64,000 bases of DNA from Candidatus Binatia bacterium (GCA_965231775.1 OZ246888.1:338853-402852), one strand, 5' to 3'. Positions 5,289 to 58,479 are shown, counted from the stretch's first letter. Numbers and translations are program-made. The notes: generated from the letters alone by a model not told the origin.

Positions 5289-5299
5289 GGAGGGAACCA

Positions 5300-5967
5300 T
5301 GTTAAAGTTTATGGCCGCTGTTCGGCGTCTGGATCATATTTCGCACGATGAGCTGGTCCACGCCTGGGAACACATTCACGCCCCGCATGTCGTTTCGCTG
5401 GTCAAGCCGGAACGCTATCGCATCACCTTCTTCGACCCGCCCTCGGACAGCGCCGATGCGGACAGCCGTCCACCGGACGGTATGGCCGAGCTGTGGTTCC
5501 GGGATAGAGAGCATTTTGAGACCACGATCGGACGGCAGGCCCCGCCCAATATAGACGCCGACAAATTCAGTACCTATGCCGCCATCCAACCGGGCTGCAA
5601 TCTGTTTGTGACCGAGCATCTCAACGTTGATGGGCCGACGACCCGCGACACCACCAAGCTCACCTTCTTTATCAAGAGACGCCAGGGAATCGAGCGCGCC
5701 CACCTGGACGACTACTGGCTGAAGGTCCATGTGCCGAACGTTGTTGCGGCCATCAATAATACGCCGGACGCGGTACGCTATTCCGTGGACTTGGTGGATC
5801 AGGCCGAGTCTGAGCGAGAGCGCACCTACGACGGCGTGGCCCAAATCTGCATCGACCATGCCAACGCCACCTTCGCCGACATCCAGGGCTATGAGCCGGA
5901 CGGTTTCGGCGAGCTGGTCGAACCCATGCTGGTGGTTAGTGGGCACGAGGTGCGTATTGTGGGCTGA
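5300..5967 (+). CDS. tandem EthD-like / dimeric alpha+beta-barrel protein
   Basis: Two internal repeats, each with the EthD-like pattern (HxxxH..P, W..VHVP). RBS aaggaggg precedes the ATG at 5300. Its last ~58 codons have a divergent second copy at 10859-11032. Confidence 0.6.
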
Positions 5968-5970
5968 CTG

Positions 5971-6243
5971 GTGTCGGGAACGACAATGAACGGGAACGAA
6001 CGCTCTATACCCCGAGATTTTGATCGAGATACGGCACCAGACCTGTCTAGGGACGGCTGGCCGGAGAAGTTCGCCAAGGCGACTGTCCGCCGTGGCCGGC
6101 TACCGGTCGCCAAACCGAAAGTGTCAACGACCATCCGTCTGTCACAGGACGTGATCGATCACTTCAAGGCCGGCGGTCGCGGCTGGCAGACGCGAATCGA
6201 TAAGGCGCTCCGCGAGTGGATCTGGAAACATAACGCCGCGTGA
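5971..6243 (+). CDS. BrnA-family ribbon-helix-helix protein (orphan)
   Basis: C-terminus KVSTTIRLSQDVIDHFKAGGRGWQTRIDKALREWI matches the BrnA/COG3514 signature (TIRLDxDVLDWFKAQGKGYQTRINAVLRAY). Starts 4 nt after the EthD stop. No BrnT-like ORF is adjacent. Confidence 0.6.
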   Translation: MSGTTMNGNERSIPRDFDRDTAPDLSRDGWPEKFAKATVRRGRLPVAKPKVSTTIRLSQDVIDHFKAGGRGWQTRIDKALREWIWKHNAA

Positions 6244-6268
6244 TGATGGATCGGCTGCGTGACCTTAC

Positions 6269-6519
6269 TCAGCTTCCATCCGCGAGAAGTGCCTTGAGCT
6301 TGGCTTCCGTCAAGCCGTTCGTGGATGCCTCCTCGCCCAAGGCATCCATCGTCATTGTCAGGCGTTCCCAGGCAGCGCCACGAAGTTGCTCATAGTGTTC
6401 ACCGACATCATCACGCCGACCACCCTGCCTTTCTTGGTCACACGCACGGGGGCGCGCTGCACAGCGTCAAGCAAATAGCCGAAGCGATTCTTGGCATCCC
6501 TGGCGGTAATTTCTTTCAT
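6269..6519 (-). pseudogene. Phd/YefM-family antitoxin, frameshifted (1-nt deletion near 6392)
   Basis: Manual translation: MKEITARDAKNRFGYLLDAVQRAPVRVTKKGRVVGVMMS, then a frame break. The next frame continues EHYEQLRGAAWERLTMTMDALGEEASTNGLTEAKLKALLADGS. Rejoined, this gives a typical ~83-aa Phd/YefM antitoxin. No cognate toxin gene is present. Confidence 0.55.
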
Positions 6520-6559
6520 GGGGGATGTAATAGCTACTATGCTCTCTTCTCACAATGAG

Positions 6560-6632
6560 AGATCACATCTTATAACTACAAATTATATGTATAATAAGGC
6601 ACGCCGTTATTTTCTTAAAGGCATAGAGTGAA
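6560..6632 (+). promoter_or_regulatory. AT-rich putative promoter region upstream of the STAND gene
   Basis: AT-rich stretch ...tacaaattatatgtataataaggcacg... containing a TATAAT-like hexamer, in an otherwise GC-rich context and immediately 5' of the 6633 ATG. Confidence 0.35.
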
Positions 6633-9600: not shown

Positions 9601-10559
9601 GTGATACAGGCGTTTACCGTCTTCACAGGTCACTCGACTTCGAAGATACGCCACTGCGACAATTCGGCAACCTTGCTTGGCATCGTCCGCTCAACACGCT
9701 AAGCGAAGCAGATATTCGGGACCTGATGCTAAAGATGTTGGGCAGGCCTGAAGGCGCTGAAGTCGTCCTTGATGGCTTGAGTATGCGACTGCACGTGTTG
9801 AAAAATGACAACCTCACCTTGGGCCCTGACCTCAAAGGAGCAGGCATACTTGCCTCCGCCGCACTGCTACGCCATAGAGCGGATTATTACGATGGTGGCT
9901 CAATCGATCTTCACCTGTCGGAAGTCTTGAAGTCCTGCATGGACGAAGTCGAGTTTCCCACAGAGACCGGTGAAGTCTTCGATGCGTTTCTCACCAGATT
10001 GAGAGCGTCGTATGGCTACGTGAGTGGTATAGAGAAGGCAGTAGCGGTTCTGGCGGAGAAGACAACATTTCGATTCCTCGATGGCATCTTCCTTGATGCT
10101 GCGCTTAAGGACTATCGCCACACGATTTTTCGGGTAGGGCGTGACGAGGAAAACCCGCTTTCTGGTGTCTCCGTTACGACACTATTAGATTGGTGTGGGC
10201 AAGACGACTTTCAGGAACGGCTGATCATGCTCTCGGAAGCGATTTATCCGTTTGAAAAAGAGCCAGAGGGTGATGGCATCGTATTGTCAGAACAAGCATA
10301 TGCCATTATAGACGCAACACAGGACCCCTCTACAGTTCTGAGAAATTTCTGCTCTTCTGCGAGGCCTAATGGATGGTCGGGGAGTTTGGCGAACATCATC
10401 GCGAAGCGAGGCCAGGCTTTTATGACATTGTTAGAGCATGGCCAATCCGATATCCGCGATGCGGCCGCAGCACAAATCGCTCAAATCAATCAGTGGGAAG
10501 AACAGCAGCGAAGCTACGAGCGGGCCGGGGATGAACAACGTGAGCAGCGTTTTGAGTAA
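6633..10559 (+). CDS. Avs/AVAST-like antiviral STAND NTPase with N-terminal Mrr-like PD-(D/E)xK nuclease domain
   Basis: N-terminus (aa 15-125) matches the Mrr_cat pattern: LRELVARLCEAEL...PDGGLDVEI...GIQVKK...CYIIVSLA (D...QxK). Walker A GLSGVGKS is at aa 238-245 (nt 7344-7367). Walker B is LAIIVLDNC. About 850 aa of helical-repeat C-terminus follow. Compositionally lower GC than the flanks. Confidence 0.65.
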   Translation: MFDISKDQLRQLNDVDLRELVARLCEAELSRAGAPVSAVRWGGAQTAPDGGLDVEILVKDQEFAGDFVPRTWTGIQVKKSNMPASKIAEEMSPKGVLRPIFPELARHNGCYIIVSLADDPAGTNLGDREKAMQTQIEPVKDQGDLRVEFYGCGRLADRLRQHPGVQLWVCEKLGLPLSGWRPFGRWSTTPPGVEDDLICEAGVTIALPGGRDKLDIAQGIDGIRELIRSSGKTVRIVGLSGVGKSRIVQALFEETVGDRPLDRHRAIYADLGEVPDPPPRTVLGRLAAEKHLAIIVLDNCSSDVHNRIASQAASSSNLRLVTVEYDIREDKPEETRVVRIDAEGPEIAETLIKRRHPDLGPVNAQRVAEFSGGNARVALALADTASEEKESLLSFSPAQLFDRLFYQRGAPDADLLKAAEVLALVYSFSISANEGGVDELATLAGLLDQNRRALHREAQTLVERQLAQKRGAWRAVLPHALSNRLAKRALENIPVDDILNTFQGLSNPRLLKSFGKRLGYLHDHEISQDIVKSWLSPGGLLHDLYLLDEDGIQLLLNVAPVAPEDVLNAIEAQDTGGTTEISFSRGSLRLRGNSRLSTFADLLVAIAYDPDLFERCVVRLAKFALMETEEEGENVSGIRGRLYGLFSLYFSETEAGPDAREHVARRFLSSGDRNEQRLGLGMLRAALRGTNQFLAGTVEFGARLRFYGYHPQTHEEHDQWFIRFVALAWKIATGEDVYLSTQVRALLASELRGLWDHSGLREALVDLAMALNEQRPWLEGWRAVRQIKHYDYRRTRGTKLLDKLDEMPESERPSDKETKTYVLSARLLDKLDETLKPRGLADEVRTYVLRADHELSTLDEEFDFDDNQSWQEANKRAAARAYDLGTVVADESNVLNELSEELFTAQNGYLFEFGKGVASKCNDLQGLWERLIEWLELAGDQACHGGVLNGVLKVTHERDEPLAQKILDEAVQKRILRKFIVSLQVSVPLGDTGVYRLHRSLDFEDTPLRQFGNLAWHRPLNTLSEADIRDLMLKMLGRPEGAEVVLDGLSMRLHVLKNDNLTLGPDLKGAGILASAALLRHRADYYDGGSIDLHLSEVLKSCMDEVEFPTETGEVFDAFLTRLRASYGYVSGIEKAVAVLAEKTTFRFLDGIFLDAALKDYRHTIFRVGRDEENPLSGVSVTTLLDWCGQDDFQERLIMLSEAIYPFEKEPEGDGIVLSEQAYAIIDATQDPSTVLRNFCSSARPNGWSGSLANIIAKRGQAFMTLLEHGQSDIRDAAAAQIAQINQWEEQQRSYERAGDEQREQRFE
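9030..9191 (+). repeat. in-frame tandem duplication (2 x 81 nt) inside the STAND gene C-terminal region
   Basis: ttattagataagctcgatgag...aaaacctatgttctcagcgcacga is directly followed by ttattagataagctggatgag...agaacctatgttctcagagcagat. The peptide repeat is LLDKLDEMPESERPSDKETKTYVLSA / LLDKLDETLKPRGLADEVRTYVLRA. Confidence 0.8.
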
Positions 10560-10608
10560 CTGTACGGAGCGCAAATATCCGAACGGTTGAGGGAAAGGTA
10601 GGCTTATC

Positions 10609-10869
10609 ATGAGTGGATACGATAAACCCCTCACCCCCAGACAGATCGCGACCACGAAGGACGAGAGCATCGATTTCAGCGATATTCCTGAGTTGGATGA
10701 GACCTTCTGGCAGCAGGCGGAACTCGTCGAACCCGACCTCACCGACCAGATTACCCTGCGTGTCAAACGGTCCGTGTTGGCCTATTTCAAGGCTCCGGGA
10801 AAGGGCTACCAGACGCGGATCAACCAGGTGCTCGAAAGCTACGTGCGGTCGCAACGCGGACCTGGTTGA
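10609..10869 (+). CDS. BrnA-family ribbon-helix-helix protein (orphan)
   Basis: ELDETFWQQAELVEP...ITLRVKRSVLAYFKAPGKGYQTRINQVLESYV is the BrnA/COG3514 signature. It starts 49 nt after the STAND gene stop. Its last 11 nt overlap the start of the EthD-like fragment. Confidence 0.6.
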   Translation: MSGYDKPLTPRQIATTKDESIDFSDIPELDETFWQQAELVEPDLTDQITLRVKRSVLAYFKAPGKGYQTRINQVLESYVRSQRGPG

Positions 10870-11032
10870 TCTGACCGATTCTGAGCGTGCTTACGGTGGC
10901 GTCGTACAAATCTGTATCGATCATCCCAACGCCACATTCGCGGATATTCAGGGCTATGAGCCAGACGGTTTTGGTGAGTCGGTCAAACCCATGCTGGTAA
11001 TCAGTAGGCATGAGGTTCATATTGTGAGTTGA
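10859..11032 (+). pseudogene. 3'-terminal fragment (~57 codons) of an EthD-like gene, divergent copy of 5788-5967
   Basis: DLVDLTDSERAYGGVVQICIDHPNATFADIQGYEPDGFGESVKPMLVISRHEVHIVS* aligns with DLVDQAESERERTYDGVAQICIDHANATFADIQGYEPDGFGELVEPMLVVSGHEVRIVG* of the intact gene. No start codon or N-terminal half. Third codon positions are AT-shifted relative to the intact copy. Confidence 0.75.
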
Positions 11033-12355: not shown

Positions 12356-13705
12356 ATGCATTTCATGTGGTTCACGGAACGTGCGTATCACTACGACCCG
12401 GAAGAACATCCGGAGCAATACCGCGACCTCGAAAACGAGATTATTCGCAAACGCAGCTTTTTCGGGACGCCAAACCGCTATTTTGATCGCCAGCACGGCG
12501 CGCGGCTGCTCAATCAGTATCTCGACGAGAAGATCTATACCGACCAGGAGCTGATGAACTTTGACGGCATTATGCTCAACGAGCACCATGCCAACCCCTT
12601 CTGCCTGGGCGCGGTCATGGATGTCGAAGCCTCGGTCCTGGCCAAGGCGACCAGCCGGGTCAGAATGGCGCTGCTCGGCAACCCGGTTCCGACCGTATCG
12701 AACGCGCTCCGGCTGGCCGAAGAGCTGGCCATGATCGACCTGATCTCCAACGGCCGCCTGATCTCCGGCTGGGTGCGTGGCGCGGGCAGCGAACAGCTCG
12801 CCAATAATGCCAACCCGGCCTTTAATCGCGAATATTTTGAAGAGGGCATCGACTTTATCATCAAGTCGTGGACCAAACCCGGCCCGTTTCGGTATGAGGG
12901 CAAGCACTTCCACTTCCGGCACGTCAATCCCTGGGTGCTGCCCGTCCAAGAGCCGCATCCGCCCTTCTGGATTCCCGGTCTCATCAGCCCCGAAACGGTC
13001 GCGTGGTGCGCCAAGAATCGCTATCCCTACGTGGCCCTGGCCACCCGACTCGAACCGACCCTGGAGCTGTGGGATTTCTACAATACAGCCGCAGCCCGTG
13101 AAGGCTATCAGGCCGGGCCGGAGAATTTTGGCTATCTGCAACCCGTCATGGTCGCGGATACGCAGGAACGCGCGGAAGAAATGGGCAAGCGCATTCTGTA
13201 CGGTGGCGCCTTTGCGCATTTCGCCCGGCCCGAATGGATGTTCCCGCCGGGCTATAACTCGAAAGCGGCCACCCGCCGGCTGGCCCGGACGAACTTCGGC
13301 GTGAATGCCTCTGCCGGGCCGCTGTACGGTGAGGGCGGGGAAACGACGGTCGAAGAGATCGAGGCCGTCAAAAAGACTATTTACGATAGCTATCCCGGTG
13401 TCCTCAAAGATATGGTCATGATCGCGGGTACGCCGGACAACGTGATTCCGAAGCTCAAGAAAATCCAGGATATCCTGCGTCCGGGCATCTTCTCCTTCTG
13501 GCTGGACGGCCCGGTGCCGGCCAAGGACCGGATGCGCTGTCTGGAACTGCTCAACCGCGACGTCATTCCGGTCATGCGCGAGCACGGCAAGACGCTGGGG
13601 CTGGTTGACCCGTTTGAGCAAAAACCCGGCTCCCGGCCGCTGGCCAACGGCCGGCCCGAGCCCGTCAGCGATGCCGAGGCTTTGGCCGAGTTGATGGCCG
13701 CCTAA
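12356..13705 (+). CDS. LLM-class flavin-dependent oxidoreductase (luciferase-like monooxygenase)
   Basis: Luciferase-like TIM-barrel pattern (NEHHANPF, LISNGRL..GW). RBS aggagg precedes the ATG. Paralog of 57139-58479. Confidence 0.8.
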   Translation: MHFMWFTERAYHYDPEEHPEQYRDLENEIIRKRSFFGTPNRYFDRQHGARLLNQYLDEKIYTDQELMNFDGIMLNEHHANPFCLGAVMDVEASVLAKATSRVRMALLGNPVPTVSNALRLAEELAMIDLISNGRLISGWVRGAGSEQLANNANPAFNREYFEEGIDFIIKSWTKPGPFRYEGKHFHFRHVNPWVLPVQEPHPPFWIPGLISPETVAWCAKNRYPYVALATRLEPTLELWDFYNTAAAREGYQAGPENFGYLQPVMVADTQERAEEMGKRILYGGAFAHFARPEWMFPPGYNSKAATRRLARTNFGVNASAGPLYGEGGETTVEEIEAVKKTIYDSYPGVLKDMVMIAGTPDNVIPKLKKIQDILRPGIFSFWLDGPVPAKDRMRCLELLNRDVIPVMREHGKTLGLVDPFEQKPGSRPLANGRPEPVSDAEALAELMAA

Positions 13706-50146: not shown

Positions 50147-51304
50147 ATGATGCAAGAGATACCAGCGGGAATCATTTCATCGGACGGCCATGTGTGTGAG
50201 CCGGCCAATTGTTATATCGACTATATTGAACCAAAATACCGGGATGTCGCGCCGCGCATCGTGGAACAACCGGACGGCACGGACGCCTTTGTCGTCCACG
50301 GCATGAAGCGGCCGATTCCCCTGGGATTCATTGATGGCGCCGGCTTCACGGTCACGGAGCGCAATAAACGCGCAAAAAAAGCCAAGTTCTCGGATATCCG
50401 TGAGGGAGCCTACGGCGGCCATGCACGGATTCCGTATATGGACCAGGATGGGATTGCGGCTGAAGTCATCTACGCTTCTATTGGGATGGGCCTGTGCATG
50501 CACCGCGACCCCGATTATAAAAACGCCTGCATGTTAGCCTATAACCGTTGGCTGCAAGCCATGTGCGGCGAAGCGCCGAACCGCATCCTGGGTCTGGCCC
50601 AGACGGCGGTCTTGAGCGTGGACAGTGCGATTGAGGATTTCCGGCGCGCCAAGGACATGGGTATGGTCGGCATGATGATGCCCGGTCGGCCCATCTACGA
50701 AGACTATGATCACGCCGACTACGACGCCCTGTGGGAGTGCGCAACGGACCTCGGTCTGCCGATCTGTTTTCATATTCTGACCTCGCGCGACGGCAGCCTG
50801 AACATGCCGCACCGCGGCCATGAGATGAATAATTTTCTGGGCATTATCCGGGCCGTCCAGGATGTTGTCGGCCTCCTGGTCCTGGGTGGCGTCTTCGAGC
50901 GTCATCCGCAATTGAAACTGGTGTGTGCCGAGGGCGACGCCGGCTGGATGCCGCACTATATGTACCGCATGGACCACGCCGCCAAAATTAACGCCGAGGG
51001 CGGAATCATGGACGGCCTGTCACAACTGCCCAGCGCATATATCAAACGCAACGTATGGATGACGTTCCAGGACGACCCGACGGCGTTTCATGCGGTCGAT
51101 ATCATGCCGCACCAGCAACTGCTGTGGGCCAGCGATTTTCCGCATACGGATTCCACCTGGCCGCGCTCCCAGCAATTACTGGCCGACCACGCGGCCCATA
51201 TCACCGAAGAGCAACGCCAGGACATCATGCGCGAGAATGCCGCCAAGCTGTTTAATCTGCCGGCGGGAAAGAAGTCGTGGCGGATGCATGAGGCCCCTGT
51301 GTAG
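50147..51304 (+). CDS. amidohydrolase-2 family protein
   Basis: Paralog of 18880-20004 (ASDFPH motif). Confidence 0.75.
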   Translation: MMQEIPAGIISSDGHVCEPANCYIDYIEPKYRDVAPRIVEQPDGTDAFVVHGMKRPIPLGFIDGAGFTVTERNKRAKKAKFSDIREGAYGGHARIPYMDQDGIAAEVIYASIGMGLCMHRDPDYKNACMLAYNRWLQAMCGEAPNRILGLAQTAVLSVDSAIEDFRRAKDMGMVGMMMPGRPIYEDYDHADYDALWECATDLGLPICFHILTSRDGSLNMPHRGHEMNNFLGIIRAVQDVVGLLVLGGVFERHPQLKLVCAEGDAGWMPHYMYRMDHAAKINAEGGIMDGLSQLPSAYIKRNVWMTFQDDPTAFHAVDIMPHQQLLWASDFPHTDSTWPRSQQLLADHAAHITEEQRQDIMRENAAKLFNLPAGKKSWRMHEAPV

Positions 51305-51308
51305 GGAA

Positions 51309-51345
51309 ACCCTCACCCTGGCCCTCTCCCAGAGGGAGAAGGGAA
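51309..51345. repeat. partial copy of the GC-rich inverted-repeat element found complete at 57037-57132
   Basis: ccctcaccctggccctctcccagagggagaaggg contains the hairpin ccctctccc-aga-gggagaaggg. The first ~37 nt are near-identical to 57040-57076. The second hairpin and the closing outer stem are lacking. Confidence 0.6.
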
Positions 51346-51352
51346 ATGCACT

Positions 51353-51514
51353 TTACGAACTCGGCTGCATGCCAAGGTCCTTTAACGGCGTGCGGTCCAC
51401 GATCGGCAGGCGGCGTGTCCTCGGCGTGAGTTTGACCGAGCCCGGTACGCGGCTGAACTGATCGACCAGGTCGATTTCCTTGGCGTATGTTGCGGGGCTG
51501 GTGAAGTTGCTCAT
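51353..51514 (-). pseudogene. 3' fragment (~50 codons) of an LLM monooxygenase; copy of the 3' end of 57139-58479
   Basis: Minus-strand translation ...YAKEIDLVDQFSRVPGSVKLTPRTRRLPIVDRTPLKDLGMQPSS* aligns with YAKEIELVDQFTRVPGSVKLTPGTRRLPIVDRTPLKDLGLQPKA*. High nucleotide identity over ~150 nt. No N-terminal body. Confidence 0.7.
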
Positions 51515-51573
51515 TGGGTCATCTTAGTATTACGTCTGATGGGTTTATCAATGATTACCCGTCCTCTAATACT

Positions 51574-52206
51574 CTACTTTGAGCGCTCCCATATCCTGCC
51601 GAAATACTCTAAGGTTCTATCGCCGAAGAATAAGAGTGTGATGACAAGGATACCAAAACAGGCACTTGCCCATAACGGCGCGCAAAGCCACTCTGCCCTC
51701 ACAAGGACAAGAAGCGTCCCGAAGACCAAAAACAAAGCGATCGCGGTGAATCCGCTACGCTGGCATCGATTGAGCCAGAAAAGCTTCTCTGTGTTCGGCT
51801 GAACCGCTTGACGACATTCCCACAGTATAGCCGTGATTTCTTCCCGCAGTGCATCTTCATGTGATAGCTCCTGGAAATCATACACGGTTTCCAGCGCCAC
51901 CCGATATGGTTTCCTGACACTCAATACTTTGATCGCATAGAACAACCCTTTTCCTAGGAAAAGGACGCTGGCTAGAAAAGCAACCAGAAGAAGCCACCTG
52001 CTATCCCCGGCGATCTTTACGAGGGATTCAATTCTCGGAACGATGAGGCTAGCAAGGACGCCGAGTATTGCTAGCATCGCCGTGGCGCGGGTCTCAGCAG
52101 CTTTACCACGTTCTACCTCTTGTACCGCACGCTGTTTGACGAATGTGAGTGACTGCTCCAAAACTTTGACATCGTTTGACGTGATACAGTTCCGTATATC
52201 AAGCAT
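51574..52206 (-). CDS. 4-TM membrane protein (last gene of the ATP-grasp operon)
   Basis: Four hydrophobic segments with a ~60-aa soluble insert. Its ATG overlaps the ATP-grasp stop (ATGCTTGA). Low-GC sequence. Confidence 0.5.
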   Translation of the reverse strand: MLDIRNCITSNDVKVLEQSLTFVKQRAVQEVERGKAAETRATAMLAILGVLASLIVPRIESLVKIAGDSRWLLLVAFLASVLFLGKGLFYAIKVLSVRKPYRVALETVYDFQELSHEDALREEITAILWECRQAVQPNTEKLFWLNRCQRSGFTAIALFLVFGTLLVLVRAEWLCAPLWASACFGILVITLLFFGDRTLEYFGRIWERSK

Positions 52207-53182
52207 GAATCTCTTCCCGCACATTGAGACAGTCAATAATCGCGTCTCTGATCGGATACCCAACCTTTCGCTCTATCCACGCCCACTGCCCATTCGGATT
52301 CAATTCGAGAAAGTAGAATTCATTGTCAGTGCCCTTCACGAGGTCAATTGCTGAGTACTTTAAGCCAAAGTGACGCGTAATAGCGCGACACCTACACGCT
52401 ATCGGGTTCGGCAACTGGATCGCCTCGTGCTTCAGGTCAAACGCATTAACATCCCACAAACGCCAGTCAACTTCAGTTTCAGAGTAATCCTGCGAATGGA
52501 TCGCAGTGGCAAAAACCTGATCCCCGACAACCGTCACCCTGATATCAAACAGCTTTGGAATTTCTCGCTGGTAGATCATCGGTACTGGCGCATACTTATC
52601 GAAGTCGCTCAGAAATTGCTGATCGACTCTTTTCGTAGGTGCTACGGTTACGATATTCTCCCCCCGAGTAAATCCGTGCTTCACGGCCTTACAGACAACG
52701 CGTCCACCATGCATTCTATGAAAGGCACGCACCCGTGCCCCTGTCATGGTTACGCAAGTCTCAGGGATCAAGTAACCGAGGCCACGGGCTACTGAAAGCT
52801 GCTCTATTTTGTTGGAAGCTAACCACAGATCGCGCGGATGATTTAGCCATATATCCCGATCAATCAGCCGCCAAAGGCTCCTGAGAGCTTCCTTCAACTC
52901 TCGATGTACGAAGGGGCGGTCAGCGCATGCTACAGTGTCTGGAACACTTGGCGAAATCGGCTGCCGGAAATAAACTGCTGAAACTGACGAATTCGAGATT
53001 GTCTGGCCGTCCGCCTTGGTGAGACGAAAATCAGACGAAGATGCGCTGAGCTCAACCTCCAGATCAAAACGGATACCAAAATCCTCAGTATTCAGTCGCG
53101 TAAAGGGAATGCCACGTTCTTTGAGACGTAAGATAAGGTAATCGCACGCTAGGTCCGTTTTATTGGTGACAATTAGTAACAT
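52199..53182 (-). CDS. MvdD-family ATP-grasp ribosomal peptide maturase (graspetide ligase)
   Basis: MLLIVTNKTDLACDYLILRLKERGIPFTRLNTEDF, DIRVTVVGDQVFATAIHSQDY..VDWR and YSAIDLVKGTDNEFYFLELNPNGQWAWIE align along their length with microviridin ligase MvdD (recollected). Confidence 0.7.
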   Translation of the reverse strand: MLLIVTNKTDLACDYLILRLKERGIPFTRLNTEDFGIRFDLEVELSASSSDFRLTKADGQTISNSSVSAVYFRQPISPSVPDTVACADRPFVHRELKEALRSLWRLIDRDIWLNHPRDLWLASNKIEQLSVARGLGYLIPETCVTMTGARVRAFHRMHGGRVVCKAVKHGFTRGENIVTVAPTKRVDQQFLSDFDKYAPVPMIYQREIPKLFDIRVTVVGDQVFATAIHSQDYSETEVDWRLWDVNAFDLKHEAIQLPNPIACRCRAITRHFGLKYSAIDLVKGTDNEFYFLELNPNGQWAWIERKVGYPIRDAIIDCLNVREEIHA

Positions 53183-53412
53183 CCCTCATCCTCGGGATCA
53201 GGATCATCGTCACCGGGGGCTGCGAAAGTCTTAGACTCAGTCCTAATAGAATCCTCTTTAGAAACCAGGGGAGACCTCGTTCCATCCCGGGTTACGATAT
53301 TGATCTGTTGGTCTTCATCATAGTGAACGACTACATCTTCCAACTCGTACTGTTTTGCAGTCACAAGAAGGTACGCACGTTTTCCAGTCACTAGACCCCT
53401 CCTATCCTCCAT
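53173..53412 (-). CDS. small acidic protein; candidate graspetide precursor peptide
   Basis: 79 aa. Its stop overlaps the ATP-grasp start by 10 nt. The C-terminal region TRDGTRSPLVSKEDSIRTESKTFAAPGDDDPDPEDEGCY is rich in Thr/Ser/Lys donors and Asp/Glu acceptors. Confidence 0.4.
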   Translation of the reverse strand: MEDRRGLVTGKRAYLLVTAKQYELEDVVVHYDEDQQINIVTRDGTRSPLVSKEDSIRTESKTFAAPGDDDPDPEDEGCY

Positions 53413-53496
53413 GGACGTTATCTTCTGGCATGTCCCGAATGGCTCCCTTAAACGGACTCCAATAATAGCCGAAGGGGAGACTTGAAGAATATTCCT

Positions 53497-56334
53497 TCAG
53501 CGACGTTCCGACAAGTTAAGCATCAGTAACTCCCGAAGAACCTCGTCATCGCTCACATCCGCGTTCCAGCCGTAAGCTGCCGCCACGGCGGCATCAAGGG
53601 CAGTGTGTGCATCAGTCAACCATTGCGGGCGGGTGTTGTAGAGATTGGTCAGGGTGCGTTTCTTGAGTGCTTTCGCTACGTCCTCGTTGCGGGGAACCGG
53701 GCGTTTGGGATAGCCGGGGACCGGCTCGTCTACCCACTCCACCCATTCCGGCGGGTTGAGCCAATTATCACGCAACTCGACCTGCCGCCGGGCGGCCTCA
53801 GCAATGGCAATGGCGCGGGGGTCCTTGGCGTAATCGGATGCGGGGATATCGGGCGACAGTCCATCTGGAAACGGGAACGTCTCAAATGTTGTGGTCGGCG
53901 TGTAGCGCGGGCGGTCTTCCAAGGTGGTGCCGAGCCGGAGCGACCATATTTCATGAAACCGACTATGCAAAATGCCGAAGGTCGTGTCATCGTCGCGGGC
54001 GACGACAACCAACAGATTCTCGGGGTAGATTGCCGGATCGCGCCAGACAAACAATCGGTATTTTGCTGTCATCGACGTTGCGATGTAGCGGGAAACGGTT
54101 TTAATTTTCCTGAACATGGCCTGTCCAGAACGGTCATGCCGCCACCAGTTTTTCCGCAAATCAGTGCGCCGATTGAGGTCCCTTTCGGGCTTTACATGCT
54201 TTTGAACATAGGCGAACGGCGCTTCGTAAAGTGCCGCGTCGGCTTCGCTCATTTCGTGCCCGAAGTCGATGACCCATTTGTCGGCTGGCCGCCGGGTAAC
54301 ATCCATACCGTTGATCCACGGCTTGAGAACATCCGCGTTGGGTCTGCCGTTCGGGTTCGTGGGCAGACAGAGCCATTCACGAGCCAGATCGCCCGGAATG
54401 TCGAAACTTCCCCTTTTGTATCCTCCCCGGAAAGCCGTCTGTCTATTTCGTTCTTGCTCTCGGGCTTCCGTAAGATCGACAATTCCGCCCGTCAGGTCAG
54501 CGTTGATTTGCGGAGCGGCGTTCCCATTGAGGCGAACGGGCAGCTTGGCCGCTTTGTCGGTAAAGCAAACCAGAGACACGCGGACAGCGGCGCCATCAAT
54601 CACCCATGGCTCATCCGACCAAGCATCGTAAATCGTCGAATGCCCAACAATCCGGCTCAGCACGGTGCGATTCTTTCCGTCGCGGATCGAATTCGTCGCG
54701 ACCAAACCAGCGCGGGCGAGCTTGCGATCGGCTACCAGACGAGTAGCCTTGTCGAACCAGTAGCAAACGAGATCGGCGAAGGCTGGTACCAATCCCTTTC
54801 GGGATCGATAAAGGTTTTCCGTATAGGCGTCGCCAAGCACTTGGCGCATCCTCTTGTTCCCCAAAAACGGTGGATTGCCGATCACGACATCGGCCTTGGG
54901 CCAGTCGGATTCACTACCCTCTGGCGTCAGGATGGCGTCCCGGCATTCGATGGTGTCAAGCGGTTTGAGAATCGGGTCGCGAGATTCGTTGAATCCGTTG
55001 CGCCGCATCCATTGGATTTCGCCAATCCACACCGACACACGGGCTAACTCCGCAGCGTAGGCGTTAATCTCGATGCCCTTGACGTTGGCCGGGCCGATAG
55101 CAGGGAATTCTCTCTCTAAGCCCAGCGCTTCGGCCTCCAACTGTACACGATGCTCCAAGTCCTTGAGGGCATGCAGCGCCAGATAAAGGAAGTTGCCCGA
55201 GCCGCAGGCCGGGTCAAGCACGGTGAAGCTCCGCAGCCGGTGGAGAAACGCGCTCAACAGGCGCTCGGCTTCGGCCTGTCGGCGCGTGCGCGTGGCCGTG
55301 GATTTGGCGGTCTCCGCTTTTTCCAGGACAGCAGCGATCTCGGCCTTGGCCGTCTCCCACTCGGTCAACCAGGGGCGAATGATTACCGGCGCGACAATCA
55401 GCATGATCTTGTCGCGGTCGGTGTAATGCGCGCCCAGTTGCGAGCGCTTGTCAGGGTCAAGCCCGCGCTCGAACAGCGTACCGAGAATTGAGGGATCAAT
55501 CTCCGACCAGTCGAGGGCCGCAGCCGCGAGTACGGTATCAATGTCGGTTTTCTCCAGTGGTAGGGTCGTATCGTCGTTAAACAACCCACCGTTGAACCAC
55601 GCCACCGGCTCAAAGCCGACCAGGCCGCCTCTGGCCATCGCCCCGAACAGGGCACGGGCCATCGTGGCGAACTCTTCAGGCCGCTTGTGGGCCTCCTCCA
55701 GCATCCGCGTGAACATGTTGTTCGGCAGCAGGCCCACGTCTTCGGCGAACATGCAGAACACAAGCCGGTTCACGAAATGCGCTACAACGTGACTCTCGTG
55801 GCGGCGTTCCCGTAATGCCTGCGCCAGGGTGGCAAAAGTGGTGGCTGCGCGTTCGGTGACGGTTTGGCGCGTTTCGCCGGGCCGGAGCCGTTCGGGCTCG
55901 GCCATCGCCCATTTTAAGATATTGCGCGTGGCTGCGTCCGCGAGATCGTCCAGCGTAAACTCGTGGGTCTCGCTGACGCTGTTGGTCCAGTTGGTGCGGA
56001 TACGGAACCGCGCCATGTCCGAGACGATCAACAGTGGCGGATTCTCCAGTGCCAGGGCGTACTGCCGTAACTGATTGAAGGCCGCGTCCAGATTCTTGTG
56101 TTTGCCCTTGTACTCCCAGGCAAAGTGATATCGCTTCCACACATCGGCCCAGCCCTTGCCGCCGGTGTCTTTACGCGCGCCACGCTCGAAGCAGTAATGG
56201 TCGCCGGTGGGGTCGGCTTGGGCCGGCGTGGATTCACCGAGCAGACGACACAGGTCAATGAAATGCTCTTGCGACGCCGAACGCTCTTTTAGCTCCGAGG
56301 CGCGCCACTTGGTAATGAATTCGCTTGGCGTCAT
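53497..56334 (-). CDS. MmeI-like type IIL restriction-modification enzyme (single-chain endonuclease + gamma-class N6-adenine methyltransferase + TRD)
   Basis: The N-terminus aligns with the MmeI nuclease domain (D...EYK in DTGGKGWADVWKRYHFAWEYKGK, then PPLLIVSDMARFRIRTNW). Motif I is VLDPACGSGNFL. Motif IV is VVIGNPPF. The 945-aa length matches the family. Confidence 0.7.
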   Translation of the reverse strand: MTPSEFITKWRASELKERSASQEHFIDLCRLLGESTPAQADPTGDHYCFERGARKDTGGKGWADVWKRYHFAWEYKGKHKNLDAAFNQLRQYALALENPPLLIVSDMARFRIRTNWTNSVSETHEFTLDDLADAATRNILKWAMAEPERLRPGETRQTVTERAATTFATLAQALRERRHESHVVAHFVNRLVFCMFAEDVGLLPNNMFTRMLEEAHKRPEEFATMARALFGAMARGGLVGFEPVAWFNGGLFNDDTTLPLEKTDIDTVLAAAALDWSEIDPSILGTLFERGLDPDKRSQLGAHYTDRDKIMLIVAPVIIRPWLTEWETAKAEIAAVLEKAETAKSTATRTRRQAEAERLLSAFLHRLRSFTVLDPACGSGNFLYLALHALKDLEHRVQLEAEALGLEREFPAIGPANVKGIEINAYAAELARVSVWIGEIQWMRRNGFNESRDPILKPLDTIECRDAILTPEGSESDWPKADVVIGNPPFLGNKRMRQVLGDAYTENLYRSRKGLVPAFADLVCYWFDKATRLVADRKLARAGLVATNSIRDGKNRTVLSRIVGHSTIYDAWSDEPWVIDGAAVRVSLVCFTDKAAKLPVRLNGNAAPQINADLTGGIVDLTEAREQERNRQTAFRGGYKRGSFDIPGDLAREWLCLPTNPNGRPNADVLKPWINGMDVTRRPADKWVIDFGHEMSEADAALYEAPFAYVQKHVKPERDLNRRTDLRKNWWRHDRSGQAMFRKIKTVSRYIATSMTAKYRLFVWRDPAIYPENLLVVVARDDDTTFGILHSRFHEIWSLRLGTTLEDRPRYTPTTTFETFPFPDGLSPDIPASDYAKDPRAIAIAEAARRQVELRDNWLNPPEWVEWVDEPVPGYPKRPVPRNEDVAKALKKRTLTNLYNTRPQWLTDAHTALDAAVAAAYGWNADVSDDEVLRELLMLNLSERR

Positions 56335-56455
56335 GGCGTTATTATTTTGGAGTGCCTGTGCATGGATGACGTTCCAAGACGATCCAAAATCGTTTCATCT
56401 TTGGAAAAGGGGGAAGAGATGTTGGGGAAGTTAGATTGAGGGGGCTCCGTGTAGT

Positions 56456-56797
56456 TTAGCCACCAAGAATATCATGCAATAATTCTTGGAGAGTCTTTTG
56501 ATCCTGCTCCCCTAAGCGGCCCAGCTTCTTGAGAATAAGCGTTTTTTCGATAGTGGCCAGTACTGGTTTGATGGTAGACGGTTTCAAAAGGCCGGCTGCT
56601 TTCCAGCCCACAATATGGGCCTCCCCCCGTGTGGATGTTGGTCTGGCCTGACTGGTGATTGCAATAATGATGAGGTCAAGGCGACCTCGGTTATAAGCAG
56701 ACGAACTCACTACCGCTGCCGGGCGCTGTTTACTTGTGGTCTGGTCCGTAAAAGGAAAGGGCGCGAGGACGATGTCTCCAAACTCATAGCTGGTCAT
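56456..56797 (-). CDS. MazF/PemK-family toxin
   Basis: MTSYEFGDIVLAPFPFTD...KQRPAAVVSS...DLIIIAITS is the PemK/MazF signature. Start chosen at 56797. Confidence 0.65.
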   Translation of the reverse strand: MTSYEFGDIVLAPFPFTDQTTSKQRPAAVVSSSAYNRGRLDLIIIAITSQARPTSTRGEAHIVGWKAAGLLKPSTIKPVLATIEKTLILKKLGRLGEQDQKTLQELLHDILGG

Positions 56798-56999
56798 AGT
56801 CGGCATCGTCCGGATTATCCCAGACGCGAGCAAAGGCCGACTCGGACAACTTGGTCGCTGCCTGGCTTAGGCGACGGTCGGCGTCACGCTGACAGAGAAA
56901 ATCGACAAAGTCTTCAACCTCGGAGACTTTAGCCGGTGGCAGGAGCCGGATTTTTTCGATCAGCTCCCGGACATGTGTATCATCAGTAGCCATTCTCAC
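56784..56999 (-). CDS. putative antitoxin of the MazF-like toxin
   Basis: 71-aa acidic protein immediately upstream of the toxin and overlapping it. LPPAKVSEVEDFVDFL is the antitoxin-like motif. Confidence 0.5.
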   Translation of the reverse strand: MRMATDDTHVRELIEKIRLLPPAKVSEVEDFVDFLCQRDADRRLSQAATKLSESAFARVWDNPDDADYDQL

Positions 57000-57036
57000 C
57001 TCTGTATTGTGTCGATAGGCTTTTTAATAATACCTC

Positions 57037-57132
57037 AAGGAACCCTCACCCCGGCCCTCTCCCAGCGGGAGAGGGGATAAAAGGTAGGGGCAACCCCCTG
57101 TGGTTGCCCGGTCCCCCGTCGGTGAGGGAAAA
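57037..57132. repeat. structured GC-rich element with nested inverted repeats, 3' of the LLM gene (terminator or REP-like)
   Basis: The outer stem cctcacc...ggtgagg encloses two hairpins: ccctctccc-agc-gggagaggg and gggcaacc-ccctgt-ggttgccc. A partial copy lies at 51309-51345. Confidence 0.6.
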
Positions 57133-57138
57133 CCCAAC

Positions 57139-58479
57139 CTACGCCTTCGGTTGCAGGCCAAGGTCCTTCAAGGGTGTGCGGTCCACGATCGGCAGGCGGC
57201 GTGTCCCCGGCGTGAGTTTGACCGAACCCGGTACGCGGGTGAACTGATCGACCAGCTCGATTTCCTTGGCGTATTCTTTGACCGCAGGAATGACCTCCTG
57301 GCCCATCAGGCGGATGCTGTTCAGCCGGTCTTCGTTGCCGACTGGCCCTTGAACCTGGAAGCAGGCGAACGTCCCTGGCCGCAGCACGCGGATCATGGTC
57401 TTGATCTTTTCAATCACGGTCTTGGGCGAGCCGACGATCATCAGGTAGTCGTCCTGGGCGCGCTTATACGACTTCTCCAGCTTACGACGGACCTCACCCA
57501 GGTCCGTACTCCTCTTTTTCCGGCCCTGCTGGGCCTCCTTGAGCCGGTCCGAATCAACCCCGACCCAGCCGCCGCTCGGACGCTGGGCCAGCAGGCGAAT
57601 GGCGTTTTTGGAATTATAGCCCGGCGGTAAGGTGTGTTCCGGTCTGGAGAAGGAACTCGCTCCACCGCCCCACACAAACCCTTTGCCCAGCTCCTGAGCC
57701 TTTTCATCCGTGTCCGCGCAGAACACCCCAATCAAATAGGCAAAATTTTCCGTGCCGGCCTGATAGCCGTTTTCGGCCGCGGTATCGGCGTAATAGTCCA
57801 GCAGGTCGCAGGTTGGACTCAGGGCGGTCACCAGGGCCAGATAGGGATAGTTATGCTGGGCCGCCCAGTGCACCGTCTCGGGGCTCAACACGCCGGGAAT
57901 CCACATTTGCGGATGCGGCTTCTGGTAGGGTAGCGCCCACGGATTGACATGGCGGTAGTGAAAATGCTTGCCCTCGTAGCGCCACGGGCCGGGCTTGGTC
58001 CACGCCTGGATAATGAAGTCGTGGGCTTCGTTGAACATCTCGCGGTTATAGGCCGGGTTGGCATTATTGAAGAACTGCTCGCTGCCCGCCCCGCGCACCC
58101 AGCCGGTGACGAGACGCCCGCGTGAGATCAGATCGATCTCGGCCAGCTCTTCGGCCATGCGCAGCGGATGCTTCAGCACCGGCAACGGATTGCCGATCAG
58201 GACGATCTTGGCCTTGCTGGTAATACGCGCCAGGATGGCGGCTTCGACATTCATGACGCTGCCCATACAGAAGGGGTTGCCGTGGTGCTCGTTCAGCATG
58301 AGCGCATCAAAACCGACCTCTTCGGCATAGCAATATTCATCTAGAAAAAAGTTATAATCGTCGGCCGCCTTTTCGCGGTCAAAGCGCGCGTTGGGCAGGG
58401 CAAAGAAACCCCGGTGTTCAAGCACTTCGTCTTCGTCGACCCAGCGATACGGTCGCTCAGTAAAATAGCCAAATAGCAT
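57139..58479 (-). CDS. LLM-class flavin-dependent oxidoreductase
   Basis: Paralog of 12356-13705 (NEHHGNPFC, LISRGRLVTGWVRGAGSEQ). Confidence 0.8.
   Translation of the reverse strand: MLFGYFTERPYRWVDEDEVLEHRGFFALPNARFDREKAADDYNFFLDEYCYAEEVGFDALMLNEHHGNPFCMGSVMNVEAAILARITSKAKIVLIGNPLPVLKHPLRMAEELAEIDLISRGRLVTGWVRGAGSEQFFNNANPAYNREMFNEAHDFIIQAWTKPGPWRYEGKHFHYRHVNPWALPYQKPHPQMWIPGVLSPETVHWAAQHNYPYLALVTALSPTCDLLDYYADTAAENGYQAGTENFAYLIGVFCADTDEKAQELGKGFVWGGGASSFSRPEHTLPPGYNSKNAIRLLAQRPSGGWVGVDSDRLKEAQQGRKKRSTDLGEVRRKLEKSYKRAQDDYLMIVGSPKTVIEKIKTMIRVLRPGTFACFQVQGPVGNEDRLNSIRLMGQEVIPAVKEYAKEIELVDQFTRVPGSVKLTPGTRRLPIVDRTPLKDLGLQPKA

What the first reader, a model, noticed from the sequence alone, without database searches (positions are those of the whole stretch)
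51305..57135. Second low-GC defense-type island bounded by a duplicated LLM 3' end plus hairpin element
- About 200 nt at 51305-51512 are near-identical to 57037-57300. They comprise the last ~50 codons of the LLM gene at 57139-58479 plus the start of the GC-rich inverted-repeat element that follows its stop.
- The left copy sits directly after the amidohydrolase stop and has lost the coding body.
- The enclosed ~5.5 kb is visibly lower in G+C. It carries a graspetide-type operon, an MmeI-like RM enzyme and a MazEF-like pair.
- No integrase or transposase is present.
- This is the same [gene][island][displaced 3' end] footprint as island 1.
Basis: seen in the sequence. Interest (0 to 1): 0.65.

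Follow-up and report, generated by a model that had tools for sequence, protein, structure and literature searches.

The report
Mosaic defence island in core-gene hotspot
A 5.6-kb patchwork of a toxin-antitoxin pair, a restriction enzyme and a small modified-peptide operon sits between two conserved metabolic genes of an uncultured Binatia bacterium and has left a spare copy of one gene's tail as a scar; this is an ordinary gene-exchange hotspot, though the scar and the peptide operon have some unusual features.

Summary
The last 45 codons of the LLM gene (luciferase-like monooxygenase; 51353-51488 vs 57139-57274, 90% identical) and a 37-nt hairpin (51308-51344 vs 57041-57077, 92%) are duplicated in direct orientation around 5.55 kb of cargo.

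Sixteen orthologous loci from Binatia genomes show that this is a variable hotspot. In seven, LLM and the amidohydrolase are convergent neighbours about 60-105 nt apart. Nine carry other cargo combinations (MazEF, MmeI-like enzymes, VapBC, DndB-like genes). None has the graspetide operon or a second LLM tail.

The island is a mosaic, not one element. MazEF, a decayed amidohydrolase relic and the MmeI gene are shared with two relatives. The LLM fragment is welded to the graspetide cassette and recurs with it, at the same base, at an unrelated locus in another metagenome contig.

There is no integrase or transposase. The same [gene][cargo][displaced 3' end] footprint occurs at island 1 and at two loci in related genomes (four different target genes counting LLM), plus a decayed amidohydrolase relic inside this island.

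The best reading is integrase-independent insertion anchored by homology in the flanking core gene, followed by cargo turnover through flanking homology. It is a new member of a known kind, of moderate interest.

The parts
50147..51304 (+). Amidohydro_2 amidohydrolase, core gene on the left flank of the hotspot
   Evidence: Pfam PF04909, E=8e-28. 93-98% aa identical orthologues lie next to LLM in 16 Binatia loci.
51308..51344 (.). Distal copy of the 37-nt G+C-rich hairpin element (CCCTCTCCC-AGA-GGGAGAAGGG)
   Evidence: 34/37 identical to 57041-57077. These are the only two copies in the window.
51353..51488 (-). Displaced LLM 3' end (45 codons plus stop), colinear with the empty-site arrangement
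   Evidence: 90.4% identical to 57139-57274; 8 of the 13 differences fall at third codon positions. In empty-site relatives the stretch 51488->48700 aligns as one block.
51489..51573 (-). Spacer that belongs to the graspetide cassette; its junction with the LLM fragment is at 51488/51489
   Evidence: Homology with L086 runs to 51531. Homology with L090 runs through the junction to 51384.
51574..52206 (-). About 210-aa helical membrane protein, third gene of the cassette
   Evidence: Conserved partner of the ATP-grasp gene in all contexts examined. AF2 model has pLDDT 84. The family has 185 representatives.
52199..53182 (-). MvdD/MvdC-type ATP-grasp RiPP maturase
   Evidence: PF21068, E=4e-11. 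TIGR04187 E=5e-67, below its cutoff.
53173..53412 (-). Graspetide-type precursor peptide (probably 72 aa, starting at GTG 53391)
   Evidence: The C-terminal core T-x-SKT-xxx-PGDDDPDPEDEGCY is invariant in 9 homologues. The gene overlaps the ATP-grasp start.
53497..56334 (-). MmeI-like type IIG restriction-modification enzyme (945 aa)
   Evidence: Pfam MmeI_N, MmeI_hel, MmeI_Mtase, MmeI_TRD and MmeI_C all match. PADLOC REase_MTase_IIG E=4e-300. NPPF, DPACGSGNF and EYK motifs are visible in the translation.
56362..56449 (+). Decayed displaced amidohydrolase 3' end: 37 nt equal to 51055-51091, then a stop-proximal remnant ...GTGTAG
   Evidence: 31/37 identical and in frame, WMTFQDDP. Conserved upstream of MmeI in L006 and L011, and aligned with the L004 amidohydrolase end that abuts MazF.
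56456..56833 (-). PemK/MazF-family toxin
   Evidence: PF02452, E=4e-12. 86-94% aa orthologues at the same hotspot in L004, L011, L014 and L022.
56784..56999 (-). DUF2281-type antitoxin
   Evidence: PF10047, E=1e-5; weak VapB match in NCBIfam. Present in 7 related loci.
57041..57077 (.). Proximal copy of the 37-nt hairpin element, in the position it has in relatives (just after LLM)
   Evidence: relatives carry it 20-100 nt after the LLM stop.
57086..57109 (-). Terminator-like hairpin of LLM (GGGCAACC..GGTTGCCC followed by a T-rich run); absent from the left copy
   Evidence: Present in the ~105-nt empty sites L007, L008, L010, L012 and L013.
57139..58479 (-). Intact luciferase-like monooxygenase (LLM), core gene on the right flank; its last 136 nt (57139-57274) form the proximal repeat copy
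   Evidence: PF00296, E=4e-35. 96-98% aa orthologues on Binatia chromosomes.

Best explanation
**What is shown**
- The interval is an accessory-gene hotspot between two convergent core genes (LLM and amidohydrolase) of a Candidatus Binatia genome.
- In this genome it holds three independent modules. These are a MazF/PemK toxin-antitoxin pair, an MmeI-type single-polypeptide restriction-modification enzyme, and a three-gene graspetide-like cassette (precursor, ATP-grasp ligase, membrane protein).
- It encodes no recombinase.

**What is inferred**
- The structure was built by the host's general recombination.
- DNA from a related donor carried the LLM 3' end, the terminator, the hairpin and the cargo. 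It paired with the resident LLM gene through homology (the anchor). Its far end joined illegitimately inside the resident LLM gene, 136 nt before the stop.
- LLM is therefore completed by one 3' end. A second 3' end plus hairpin stays attached to the amidohydrolase. Both core genes keep an intact end and a terminator, which is why such events survive.
- An earlier event of the same kind, anchored on the amidohydrolase side, left the decayed amidohydrolase relic between MmeI and MazF.
- Once made, such scars are inherited with the neighbouring cargo. The cargo between the conserved edges is then exchanged by ordinary double homologous recombination.
For: **Hotspot**
- There are 7 empty sites and 9 differently filled sites among 16 orthologous loci.
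- The left repeat copy, the hairpin and the amidohydrolase are colinear with the empty site.

**No recombinase and no common target**
- The six genes fill the interval and none is a recombinase.
- The same footprint occurs at four different target genes, with no shared boundary motif:
  - LLM (this island).
  - EthD (island 1, PD-Lambda-4_A cargo; also in L094 and L095).
  - A MoCoBD gene (L067, VapBC cargo) and a secretin gene (L014, HTH/DUF4258 pair).
- A decayed amidohydrolase 3' relic inside this island looks like a fifth, older example.

**Origin of the two copies**
- In L067, eight relatives have the empty site. The copy that completes the gene is foreign-like (88% to the nearest relative). 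The displaced copy is resident-like (97.8%).
- The two LLM copies differ mostly at third codon positions (8 of 13). Each looks like a normal allele (94-95% to L002). This fits two lineages rather than in-place decay.

**Mosaic history and inherited scars**
- MazEF, the amidohydrolase relic and MmeI are shared with L006 and L011, which have deletions.
- MmeI plus the cassette are linked in L087 and L090.
- The spacer|LLM(-136) junction is identical in L090, at an unrelated locus.
- The displaced EthD fragment is orthologous in three genomes that carry different cargo.

**Precedent**
- Homology-facilitated illegitimate recombination was proposed for T6SS effector-immunity displacement and for Rhs 3' displacement (PMC5361080).
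- Core-gene-flanked hotspots and TA islets that spread by flanking homologous recombination are described in PMC10250203 and PMC13617665.
Against: - No step of the recombination is observed directly.
- No microhomology could be assessed at the 51488/51489 joint, because the donor sequence beyond the spacer is unknown.
- For island 2 itself, neither LLM copy can be assigned to donor or resident: both are 94-95% identical to the closest relative.
- The duplications are all short (69-184 nt) and the cargo is flush with them. A random illegitimate joint does not predict this without an added survival filter.
- The L067 allele pattern could also arise from later allelic replacement of either copy.
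- The shared junction in L090 shows that the scar need not have been created in this genome.
- A recombinase acting in trans from outside the 64-kb window cannot be excluded.
Confidence: 0.55

Rival explanations
1. The island is an integrase-mediated integrative element, or a decayed or cis-mobilisable remnant of one. Its attachment site carries a replacement LLM 3' end. Integration at a core site about 136 nt before the LLM stop rebuilt the gene and displaced the resident end. The integrase has since been lost or acts in trans.
For: - The topology is what 3'-end-targeting integrases produce: intact gene, then cargo, then displaced 3' end in direct orientation.
- In L067 the proximal copy is wholly foreign-like and the distal copy wholly resident-like. 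That is expected if the crossover sits at the gene-internal repeat boundary.
- The LLM fragment travels with the cassette and in L090 sits between the cassette and the MazE gene. An excised circle would have that junction.
- In Aminobacter the homologous cassette lies next to a P4-type integrase.
Against: - There is no integrase in island 2, island 1, L067 or L014.
- At least four different target genes would need several integrases or a promiscuous one.
- No shared boundary motif was seen.
- Relatives carry the same MazEF and MmeI modules at this site without any LLM duplication.
- In L067 the cargo is only a 669-nt VapBC pair flush with both repeats. Erosion of a larger element is unlikely to produce that.
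Confidence: 0.2
2. The island is a recombinase-free 'homing' cassette. Recombination between the two direct repeats releases a circle that carries one LLM 3' end. RecA-mediated single crossover (Campbell type) with the LLM 3' end of a naive genome then re-inserts the circle and regenerates the duplication.
For: - L090 has the circularly permuted order cassette-spacer-LLM fragment-MazE.
- The repeats contain a perfect run of up to 32 nt.
- The repeats persist at the EthD locus in three genomes.
Against: - In L067 the copies are not hybrids. The crossover would have to fall in the last ~5 nt of a 92-nt homology.
- L090 lies at a non-LLM locus, so homology-driven homing did not place it there.
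- No circle was observed.
- A homology of 92-180 nt at 80-90% identity is a poor RecA substrate.
Confidence: 0.12
3. The duplication arose in place at the moment of insertion, as a long target duplication from repair of a staggered or resected break or from template switching. The two copies later diverged through allelic recombination and neutral decay.
For: - L094 has nearly identical copies (167 nt, 97%), while the orthologous distal copies in the window and L095 are ~20% diverged, as if ageing.
- The duplications are of similar modest length at every locus.
Against: - The LLM copies differ by 9.6%, mainly at synonymous positions. The displaced copy shows no excess of private changes.
- I recall no bacterial mechanism that gives 90-180-nt target duplications (own knowledge).
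Confidence: 0.1
4. The feature is a chance similarity, an assembly artefact, or a conserved native operon.
For: None beyond the fact that the genome comes from a metagenome assembly.
Against: - E=1.7e-48 for the repeat.
- The copies differ at 13 sites, so they are not a collapsed or duplicated assembly segment.
- Empty and alternative states exist in 16 relatives.
- The same junction appears in an independent metagenome contig.
Confidence: 0.01

Closest known systems
Core-gene-flanked defence hotspots (P. aeruginosa cDHS1/2, PMC10250203) and TA 'islets' spread by flanking homologous recombination (PMC13617665)
   Same: - Conserved flanking core genes.
- Empty, small and large fillings in different genomes.
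- Defence and TA cargo.
- No obvious mobile-element machinery.
   Different: - The hotspot here is small (0.06-5.8 kb) and lies between convergent genes.
- It carries duplicated 3' ends of the flanking genes as scars. One search shows the authors noting that transfer by flanking homologous recombination would leave no MGE-derived scars.
Displacement arrays attributed to homology-facilitated illegitimate recombination: V. cholerae T6SS effector-immunity modules (PMC5361080) and Rhs/CDI C-terminal displacement with orphan 3' ends
   Same: - Incoming DNA is anchored in a conserved upstream gene.
- The resident 3' part is pushed downstream and kept as an orphan.
- Successive events give nested relics.
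- No integrase is involved.
   Different: - There the incoming 3' end is a new toxin domain and the orphan retains an immunity function.
- Here the incoming 3' end is an ordinary allele of a metabolic gene, and the orphan has no evident function.
Integrative elements that target the 3' end of a gene and carry a replacement end (tRNA-targeting islands; e14 and phage 21 in E. coli icd). Cited from my own knowledge, not checked here.
   Same: - The layout is intact gene, then cargo, then displaced 3' end, in direct orientation.
- The repeat copies are diverged.
- The duplicated segment is about 100-200 nt.
   Different: - No integrase is present here.
- Several unrelated target genes are involved.
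- The same cargo occurs in relatives without the duplication.
Neisseria minimal mobile elements. Cited from my own knowledge.
   Same: Alternative gene cassettes sit between the same pair of conserved genes and move by transformation and flanking homology, without their own recombinase.
   Different: Minimal mobile elements leave no duplication of the flanking genes.
Cargo families: MmeI-family type IIG/IIL RM enzymes, MazEF/PemIK toxin-antitoxin pairs, and graspetide (microviridin-type) RiPP clusters
   Same: - The MmeI-like gene has the full five-domain architecture.
- The toxin is a PemK-fold protein with an overlapping upstream antitoxin gene.
- The ATP-grasp is MvdD-like and sits next to a precursor rich in Thr/Ser/Lys and Asp/Glu.
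   Different: - The antitoxin is DUF2281/VapB-like, not MazE.
- The ATP-grasp scores below all NCBIfam equivalog cutoffs.
- The graspetide precursor core is almost invariant across distant taxa.
- The cassette is always paired with a dedicated membrane protein in defence-type neighbourhoods, unlike characterised protease-inhibitor graspetides.

Membership tests
Core-gene-flanked accessory/defence hotspot | The same two core genes flank the site in related genomes | tested here: met
   ECH-LLM and amidohydrolase-FAD monooxygenase flank the site in 16 loci.
Core-gene-flanked accessory/defence hotspot | Presence/absence and content polymorphism among relatives, including empty sites | tested here: met
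   7 empty sites and 9 sites with differing cargo.
Core-gene-flanked accessory/defence hotspot | Cargo enriched in defence or TA genes | tested here: met
   MazEF, type IIG RM, VapC, HEPN, DndB-like and TIR-like genes.
Integrase-mediated integrative island targeting a gene 3' end | Direct repeats made of the target gene's 3' end, with the gene reconstituted | tested here: met
   The LLM ORF is intact (446 aa; 96-98% to orthologues).
Integrase-mediated integrative island targeting a gene 3' end | A tyrosine or serine recombinase gene within the element | tested here: not met
   All six genes are annotated and none is a recombinase. The same holds for island 1, L067 and L014.
Integrase-mediated integrative island targeting a gene 3' end | A conserved core (crossover) sequence at the repeat boundary, shared by independent insertions | tested here: inconclusive
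   No common motif was seen at the LLM, EthD and MoCoBD boundaries. Only one independent insertion per target was available.
Homology-facilitated illegitimate recombination / 3'-displacement | The resident 3' end is displaced distal to the cargo and stays colinear with the original downstream DNA | tested here: met
   for LLM. for L067, where the distal copy is 97.8% identical to the nearest relative.
Homology-facilitated illegitimate recombination / 3'-displacement | A donor-derived tract extends from the cargo into the anchor gene | tested here: inconclusive
   In L067 the divergent tract 1606-1729 runs ~40 nt past the repeat boundary, but this is not significant. For LLM both copies are equally close to relatives.
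Homology-facilitated illegitimate recombination / 3'-displacement | Microhomology at the illegitimate joint | not testable with these tools
   The donor sequence beyond the spacer is unknown, and L086 diverges before the joint.
REP-type dispersed extragenic palindrome | Many dispersed copies in intergenic regions of the genome | tested here: not met
   Only the two copies at this locus occur in 64 kb. Relatives have one per locus, with a few extra copies in L014 and L043. A whole-genome count is not available.
MmeI-family type IIG RM enzyme | N-terminal nuclease, helical spacer, gamma-class N6A methyltransferase, TRD and C-terminal domain in one polypeptide | tested here: met
   All five Pfam MmeI domains match. 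PADLOC E=4e-300. Activity was not tested.
MazEF/PemIK type II toxin-antitoxin | A PemK/MazF-fold toxin preceded by a small overlapping antitoxin gene | tested here: met
   PF02452 toxin. A 71-aa DUF2281 protein lies upstream with overlap. The antitoxin is not of the MazE family.
Graspetide RiPP cluster | MvdD/MvdC-type ATP-grasp next to a precursor with Thr/Ser/Lys donors and Asp/Glu acceptors | tested here: met
   PF21068. TIGR04187/04185/04184 match at E 1e-46 to 1e-67 but below cutoff. The precursor core is TESKT...PGDDDPDPEDEGCY.
Graspetide RiPP cluster | Macrolactone or macrolactam cross-links in the mature peptide | not testable with these tools
   Requires mass spectrometry of the co-expressed precursor and ligase.

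The most novel reading that the evidence does not exclude
The displaced core-gene tails may not be passive scars. They could act as portable homology arms, making small TA and defence cassettes in Binatia mobile without any recombinase.
- A cassette bounded by two diverged copies of a core gene's 3' end could loop out as a circle.
- After transfer it could re-insert at the same gene in a naive genome, rebuilding the gene each time.
- The MmeI-graspetide module with its attached LLM fragment, seen at two loci, would be one such unit.

A second open possibility concerns the precursor/ATP-grasp/membrane-protein cassette. Its peptide core is invariant and all 8 contexts examined are defence-type neighbourhoods, so it could be an undescribed anti-phage or addiction system.
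Probability: 0.2. Interest if true: 0.7.

Novelty: new member of a known kind. Interest (0 to 1): 0.42.

Why it matters
- It gives a clean, comparatively documented example of how defence and toxin-antitoxin genes are slotted between core genes without any mobile-element machinery. The example comes from a little-studied, uncultured phylum with many complete genomes.
- The nested gene-tail scars record the order of insertions.
- The recurrence of the footprint at four unrelated genes (plus a decayed fifth example) suggests a general route that leaves scars. That route could be counted genome-wide to estimate how often one-sided recombination, rather than clean double crossover, brings in new genes.
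- It also flags a rare three-gene peptide cassette that keeps company with restriction and abortive-infection genes and has not been catalogued as a defence system.

Tried and rejected
- **Structured RNA or tRNA target.** Rfam (gathering thresholds) and ARAGORN found nothing in the window. The island is not tRNA-targeted and the hairpin is not a known RNA family.
- **Dispersed REP.** A fuzzy search found only the two local copies.
- **Junction search in metagenomes.** An exact pattern across the spacer|LLM joint gave 0 hits. A profile scan with the membrane protein gave only 3 short contigs.
- **Cassette on plasmids or phages.** tblastn of the membrane protein gave no match in either collection.
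- **Membrane protein as a PycTM/SLATT-type effector.**
  - The evidence is only one weak PADLOC hit (E=5e-4) and 'weak' precomputed Pfam marks on three homologues.
  - The link was not reproduced when all 22 homologues were scanned.
  - The AF2 model had no significant PDB match, and the afdb50 library was unavailable.
  - I do not claim the link.
- **Assigning donor versus resident for the two LLM copies.** Both are 94-95% identical to the nearest relative, so this was uninformative.
- **LLM paralogue loci (L044-L080) as comparators for island 1.** None contains EthD or VWA. I used VWA homologues instead.
- **Literature.** Searches for an ATP-grasp or graspetide defence system and for the core motif found nothing specific.


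Full report
**1. The observation**

- Aligning 51250-51560 with 56990-57350 shows a real direct repeat.
- The repeat finder reports 51328-51488 vs 57114-57274 (161 nt, 86%) and a 37-nt hairpin element at 51308-51344 vs 57041-57077 (92%).
- BLAST of the window against itself gives 128 nt at 93%, E=1.7e-48.
- The coding part is the last 45 codons plus stop of the LLM (luciferase-like monooxygenase) gene, 57139-57274. It is repeated at 51353-51488 with 123/136 identities. Eight of the 13 differences are at third codon positions.
- The right copy has about 60 extra bases (57078-57138) between the hairpin and the LLM stop. They hold a terminator-like stem followed by a T-rich run.
- The left copy begins 3 nt after the amidohydrolase stop.
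The repeat is shorter (it ends at 51488/57274) and less identical (86-93%) than stated.

**2. Content and composition**

- The interval holds six genes, all on the minus strand:
  - a ~210-aa membrane protein;
  - an MvdD-type ATP-grasp RiPP (ribosomally made, modified peptide) maturase;
  - a 72-79-aa precursor;
  - a 945-aa MmeI-type IIG RM (restriction-modification) enzyme, with all five Pfam MmeI domains and PADLOC E=4e-300;
  - a PemK/MazF toxin;
  - a DUF2281 antitoxin.
- There is no room for a recombinase, and none is found.
- G+C is low only for the peptide cassette (48-50%) and MazF (52%). The MmeI-like gene (59%, GC3 70%) matches the core genes (58-61%).

**3. Related genomes**

- A scan of species-representative genomes with the LLM protein returned 80 loci. 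Sixteen are orthologous (80-98% aa) and come from Candidatus Binatia genomes (one record is labelled Thermodesulfobacteriota). They share the same flanks.
- In seven (L003, L005, L007, L008, L010, L012, L013), LLM and the amidohydrolase are convergent neighbours about 60-105 nt apart. Only the terminator hairpin and/or the 37-nt hairpin lie between them.
- In those loci the window's stretch 51488->48700 aligns as one block, starting in the LLM 3' end. The left repeat copy, hairpin and amidohydrolase are therefore an intact 'empty site' cut at LLM codon -45.
- The other nine loci carry MazEF alone (L004, L014), MmeI-like genes with or without MazEF (L006, L009, L011, L043), a VapC gene (L002), a small membrane protein (L001), or an IS-like gene plus two DndB-like genes (L022).
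- None has the peptide cassette or a second LLM tail.

**4. The island is a mosaic**

- A 37-nt in-frame piece of the amidohydrolase (56362-56398 = 51055-51091) lies between the MmeI start and the MazF stop. It is followed by a remnant of the amidohydrolase stop region that abuts the MazF stop, as in L004.
- This relic is conserved upstream of MmeI in L006 and L011. Both are deletion derivatives of the same MazEF-relic-MmeI arrangement.
- That part therefore predates the split of these genomes. It records an earlier insertion that displaced the amidohydrolase end.
- Downstream of MmeI the relatives differ: HEPN protein, a 233-aa protein, a 175-aa membrane protein, or nothing.
- The peptide cassette follows an MmeI-like gene in two other contigs (L087, L090).

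**5. The LLM fragment travels with the cassette**

- L090 is a 23-kb metagenome contig with unrelated flanks.
- It carries, in order: MmeI, precursor, ATP-grasp, membrane protein, spacer, then 105 nt of the LLM tail joined to the spacer at the same base as in the window. After that come a MazE pseudogene, the VapBC pair found in the L002 hotspot, and a TIR-like gene.
- L086 is the same locus in a close relative (flank 95.7% identical). Its cassette is only 84% identical and it has no LLM fragment.
- The spacer|LLM joint was therefore formed once and has been inherited and moved with the cargo.
- The order in L090 (cassette, LLM tail, MazE) is the one expected for a circle made by recombination between the two LLM copies. 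It is also the order expected if cargo accumulated downstream of the displaced tail and the segment was then translocated. I could not decide between these.

**6. The footprint is recurrent**

- **Island 1.**
  - It has the same topology: EthD gene, then a full-length PD-Lambda-4_A homologue (E=0), then ~180 nt of the EthD tail (78% identical), then the VWA gene.
  - Two relatives carry different cargo there (BrnTA, Phd and others) but also have a displaced EthD tail before VWA. It is 97% identical in L094 and 80% in L095, and it is orthologous to the window's.
  - Scars therefore outlive the cargo.
- **L067.**
  - A 669-nt VapBC pair is flanked by a 92-nt duplication of a MoCoBD gene tail.
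  - Eight relatives have the empty site.
  - The copy completing the gene is 88% identical to the nearest relative, while the displaced copy is 97.8% identical.
- **L014.** An HTH/DUF4258 pair is flanked by a 133-nt duplication of a secretin gene tail.
- Together with LLM this makes four different target genes, plus the decayed amidohydrolase relic described in section 4. There is no recombinase and no shared boundary motif.

**7. Mechanism**

- I favour (0.55) homology-anchored, integrase-independent insertion. This is one-sided homologous recombination with an illegitimate joint inside the resident gene tail, as proposed for T6SS effector-immunity and Rhs displacement (PMC5361080).
- Cargo turnover would then follow by ordinary recombination in the conserved edges, as suggested for core defence hotspots and TA islets (PMC10250203, PMC13617665).
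- Only events that keep both convergent genes and their terminators intact would survive. That could explain the short duplications.
- Rivals:
  - an integrative element whose integrase is lost or acts in trans (0.2);
  - RecA-dependent circle 'homing' through the carried gene tail (0.12);
  - in-place duplication followed by allelic divergence (0.1).
- Shown: the hotspot, the mosaic history, the absence of a recombinase, the recurrence of the footprint and the inherited joint.
- Inferred: the recombination pathway.

**8. The peptide cassette (side finding)**

- The ATP-grasp has more than 1,100 relatives.
- In every context examined it is flanked by a 56-79-aa precursor gene that overlaps its start and by a 207-229-aa membrane protein.
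- The precursor C-terminus T-x-SKT-xxx-PGDDDPDPEDEGCY is invariant in nine copies from distant taxa.
- The neighbours are MmeI-like or type I RM systems, SIR2/DUF87/RNase T, AbiEii-WYL, HepT/MNT, SNF2+DUF1156, integrases and transposases.
- The ATP-grasp and the precursor have no PADLOC v2 hit; the membrane protein has only the weak PycTM match discussed above.
- The membrane protein family is rare (185 representatives at E<=1e-3) and has no solved-fold match.
- Literature searches found no description of it as a defence system.

**9. Verdict**

This is a real, horizontally assembled island in a Binatia-wide hotspot. It is an ordinary kind of feature with an informative scar: a new member of a known kind, of moderate interest.

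Noticed in passing
window 51574-53412 (-); L081, L084, L085, L086, L087, L088, L089, L090: A conserved three-gene cassette: a 56-79-aa precursor, an MvdD-like ATP-grasp and a ~210-aa membrane protein. The precursor core (T-x-SKT-xxx-PGDDDPDPEDEGCY) is invariant. It is always found among RM, abortive-infection, TA or integrase genes. The ATP-grasp and precursor have no PADLOC v2 hit. The membrane-protein family is rare. It is a possible undescribed defence or addiction module.
   Followed up: partly
window 54030-54865 within the MmeI-like gene; L009, L011, L090 vs L006, L043: The MmeI-like gene is itself mosaic. The nuclease/methylase part and the C-terminus are 81-86% identical in L009, L011 and L090, but the target-recognition portion is replaced. 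L006 and L043 share the window's version. This suggests swapping of recognition specificity.
   Followed up: partly
window 56362-56449 (+): A decayed amidohydrolase 3' end (37 nt in frame, then the stop-proximal remnant) lies between the MmeI start and the MazF stop. It is conserved in L006 and L011 and marks an older displacement event on the amidohydrolase side.
   Followed up: yes
window 5035-11032; L094 4264-7913; L095 5892-7964: Island 1 carries a full-length PD-Lambda-4_A homologue. EthD-VWA is a second hotspot: two relatives have other TA cargo there, and all three genomes keep a displaced EthD 3' fragment just before VWA. The two copies are 97% identical in L094 and ~80% identical in the window and L095.
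   Followed up: partly
L067 837-1689; L014 5775-6942: Small TA insertions are flanked by duplicated 3' ends of a MoCoBD gene (VapBC; 92 nt, 90%) and a secretin gene (HTH/DUF4258; 133 nt, 95%). In L067 the gene-completing copy is foreign-like and the displaced copy resident-like.
   Followed up: partly
window 51353-51514 (-); L090 10711-10866: A chimeric 53-aa ORF is made of 9 codons of cassette spacer fused to 44 LLM codons. It is also open, as 51 aa, in L090. It is probably meaningless but it is conserved.
   Followed up: no
L001, L006, L011, L022, L043, L090 (between MmeI or MazEF and the amidohydrolase): The slot downstream of MmeI is itself variable. It holds a HEPN protein (L011), a 233-aa protein (L006), or a 175-aa membrane protein (L043, with the same family in L001). 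L022 has an IS-like gene plus two DndB-like genes. L090 has a TIR-like effector.
   Followed up: partly
window 12356-13705 (+): A second LLM paralogue, 71% nt identical to the 57139-58479 gene and in inverted orientation, sits right after the island-1 hotspot. Both islands in the window therefore lie within ~1.5 kb of an LLM-family gene. This is probably a coincidence in an LLM-rich genome.
   Followed up: no
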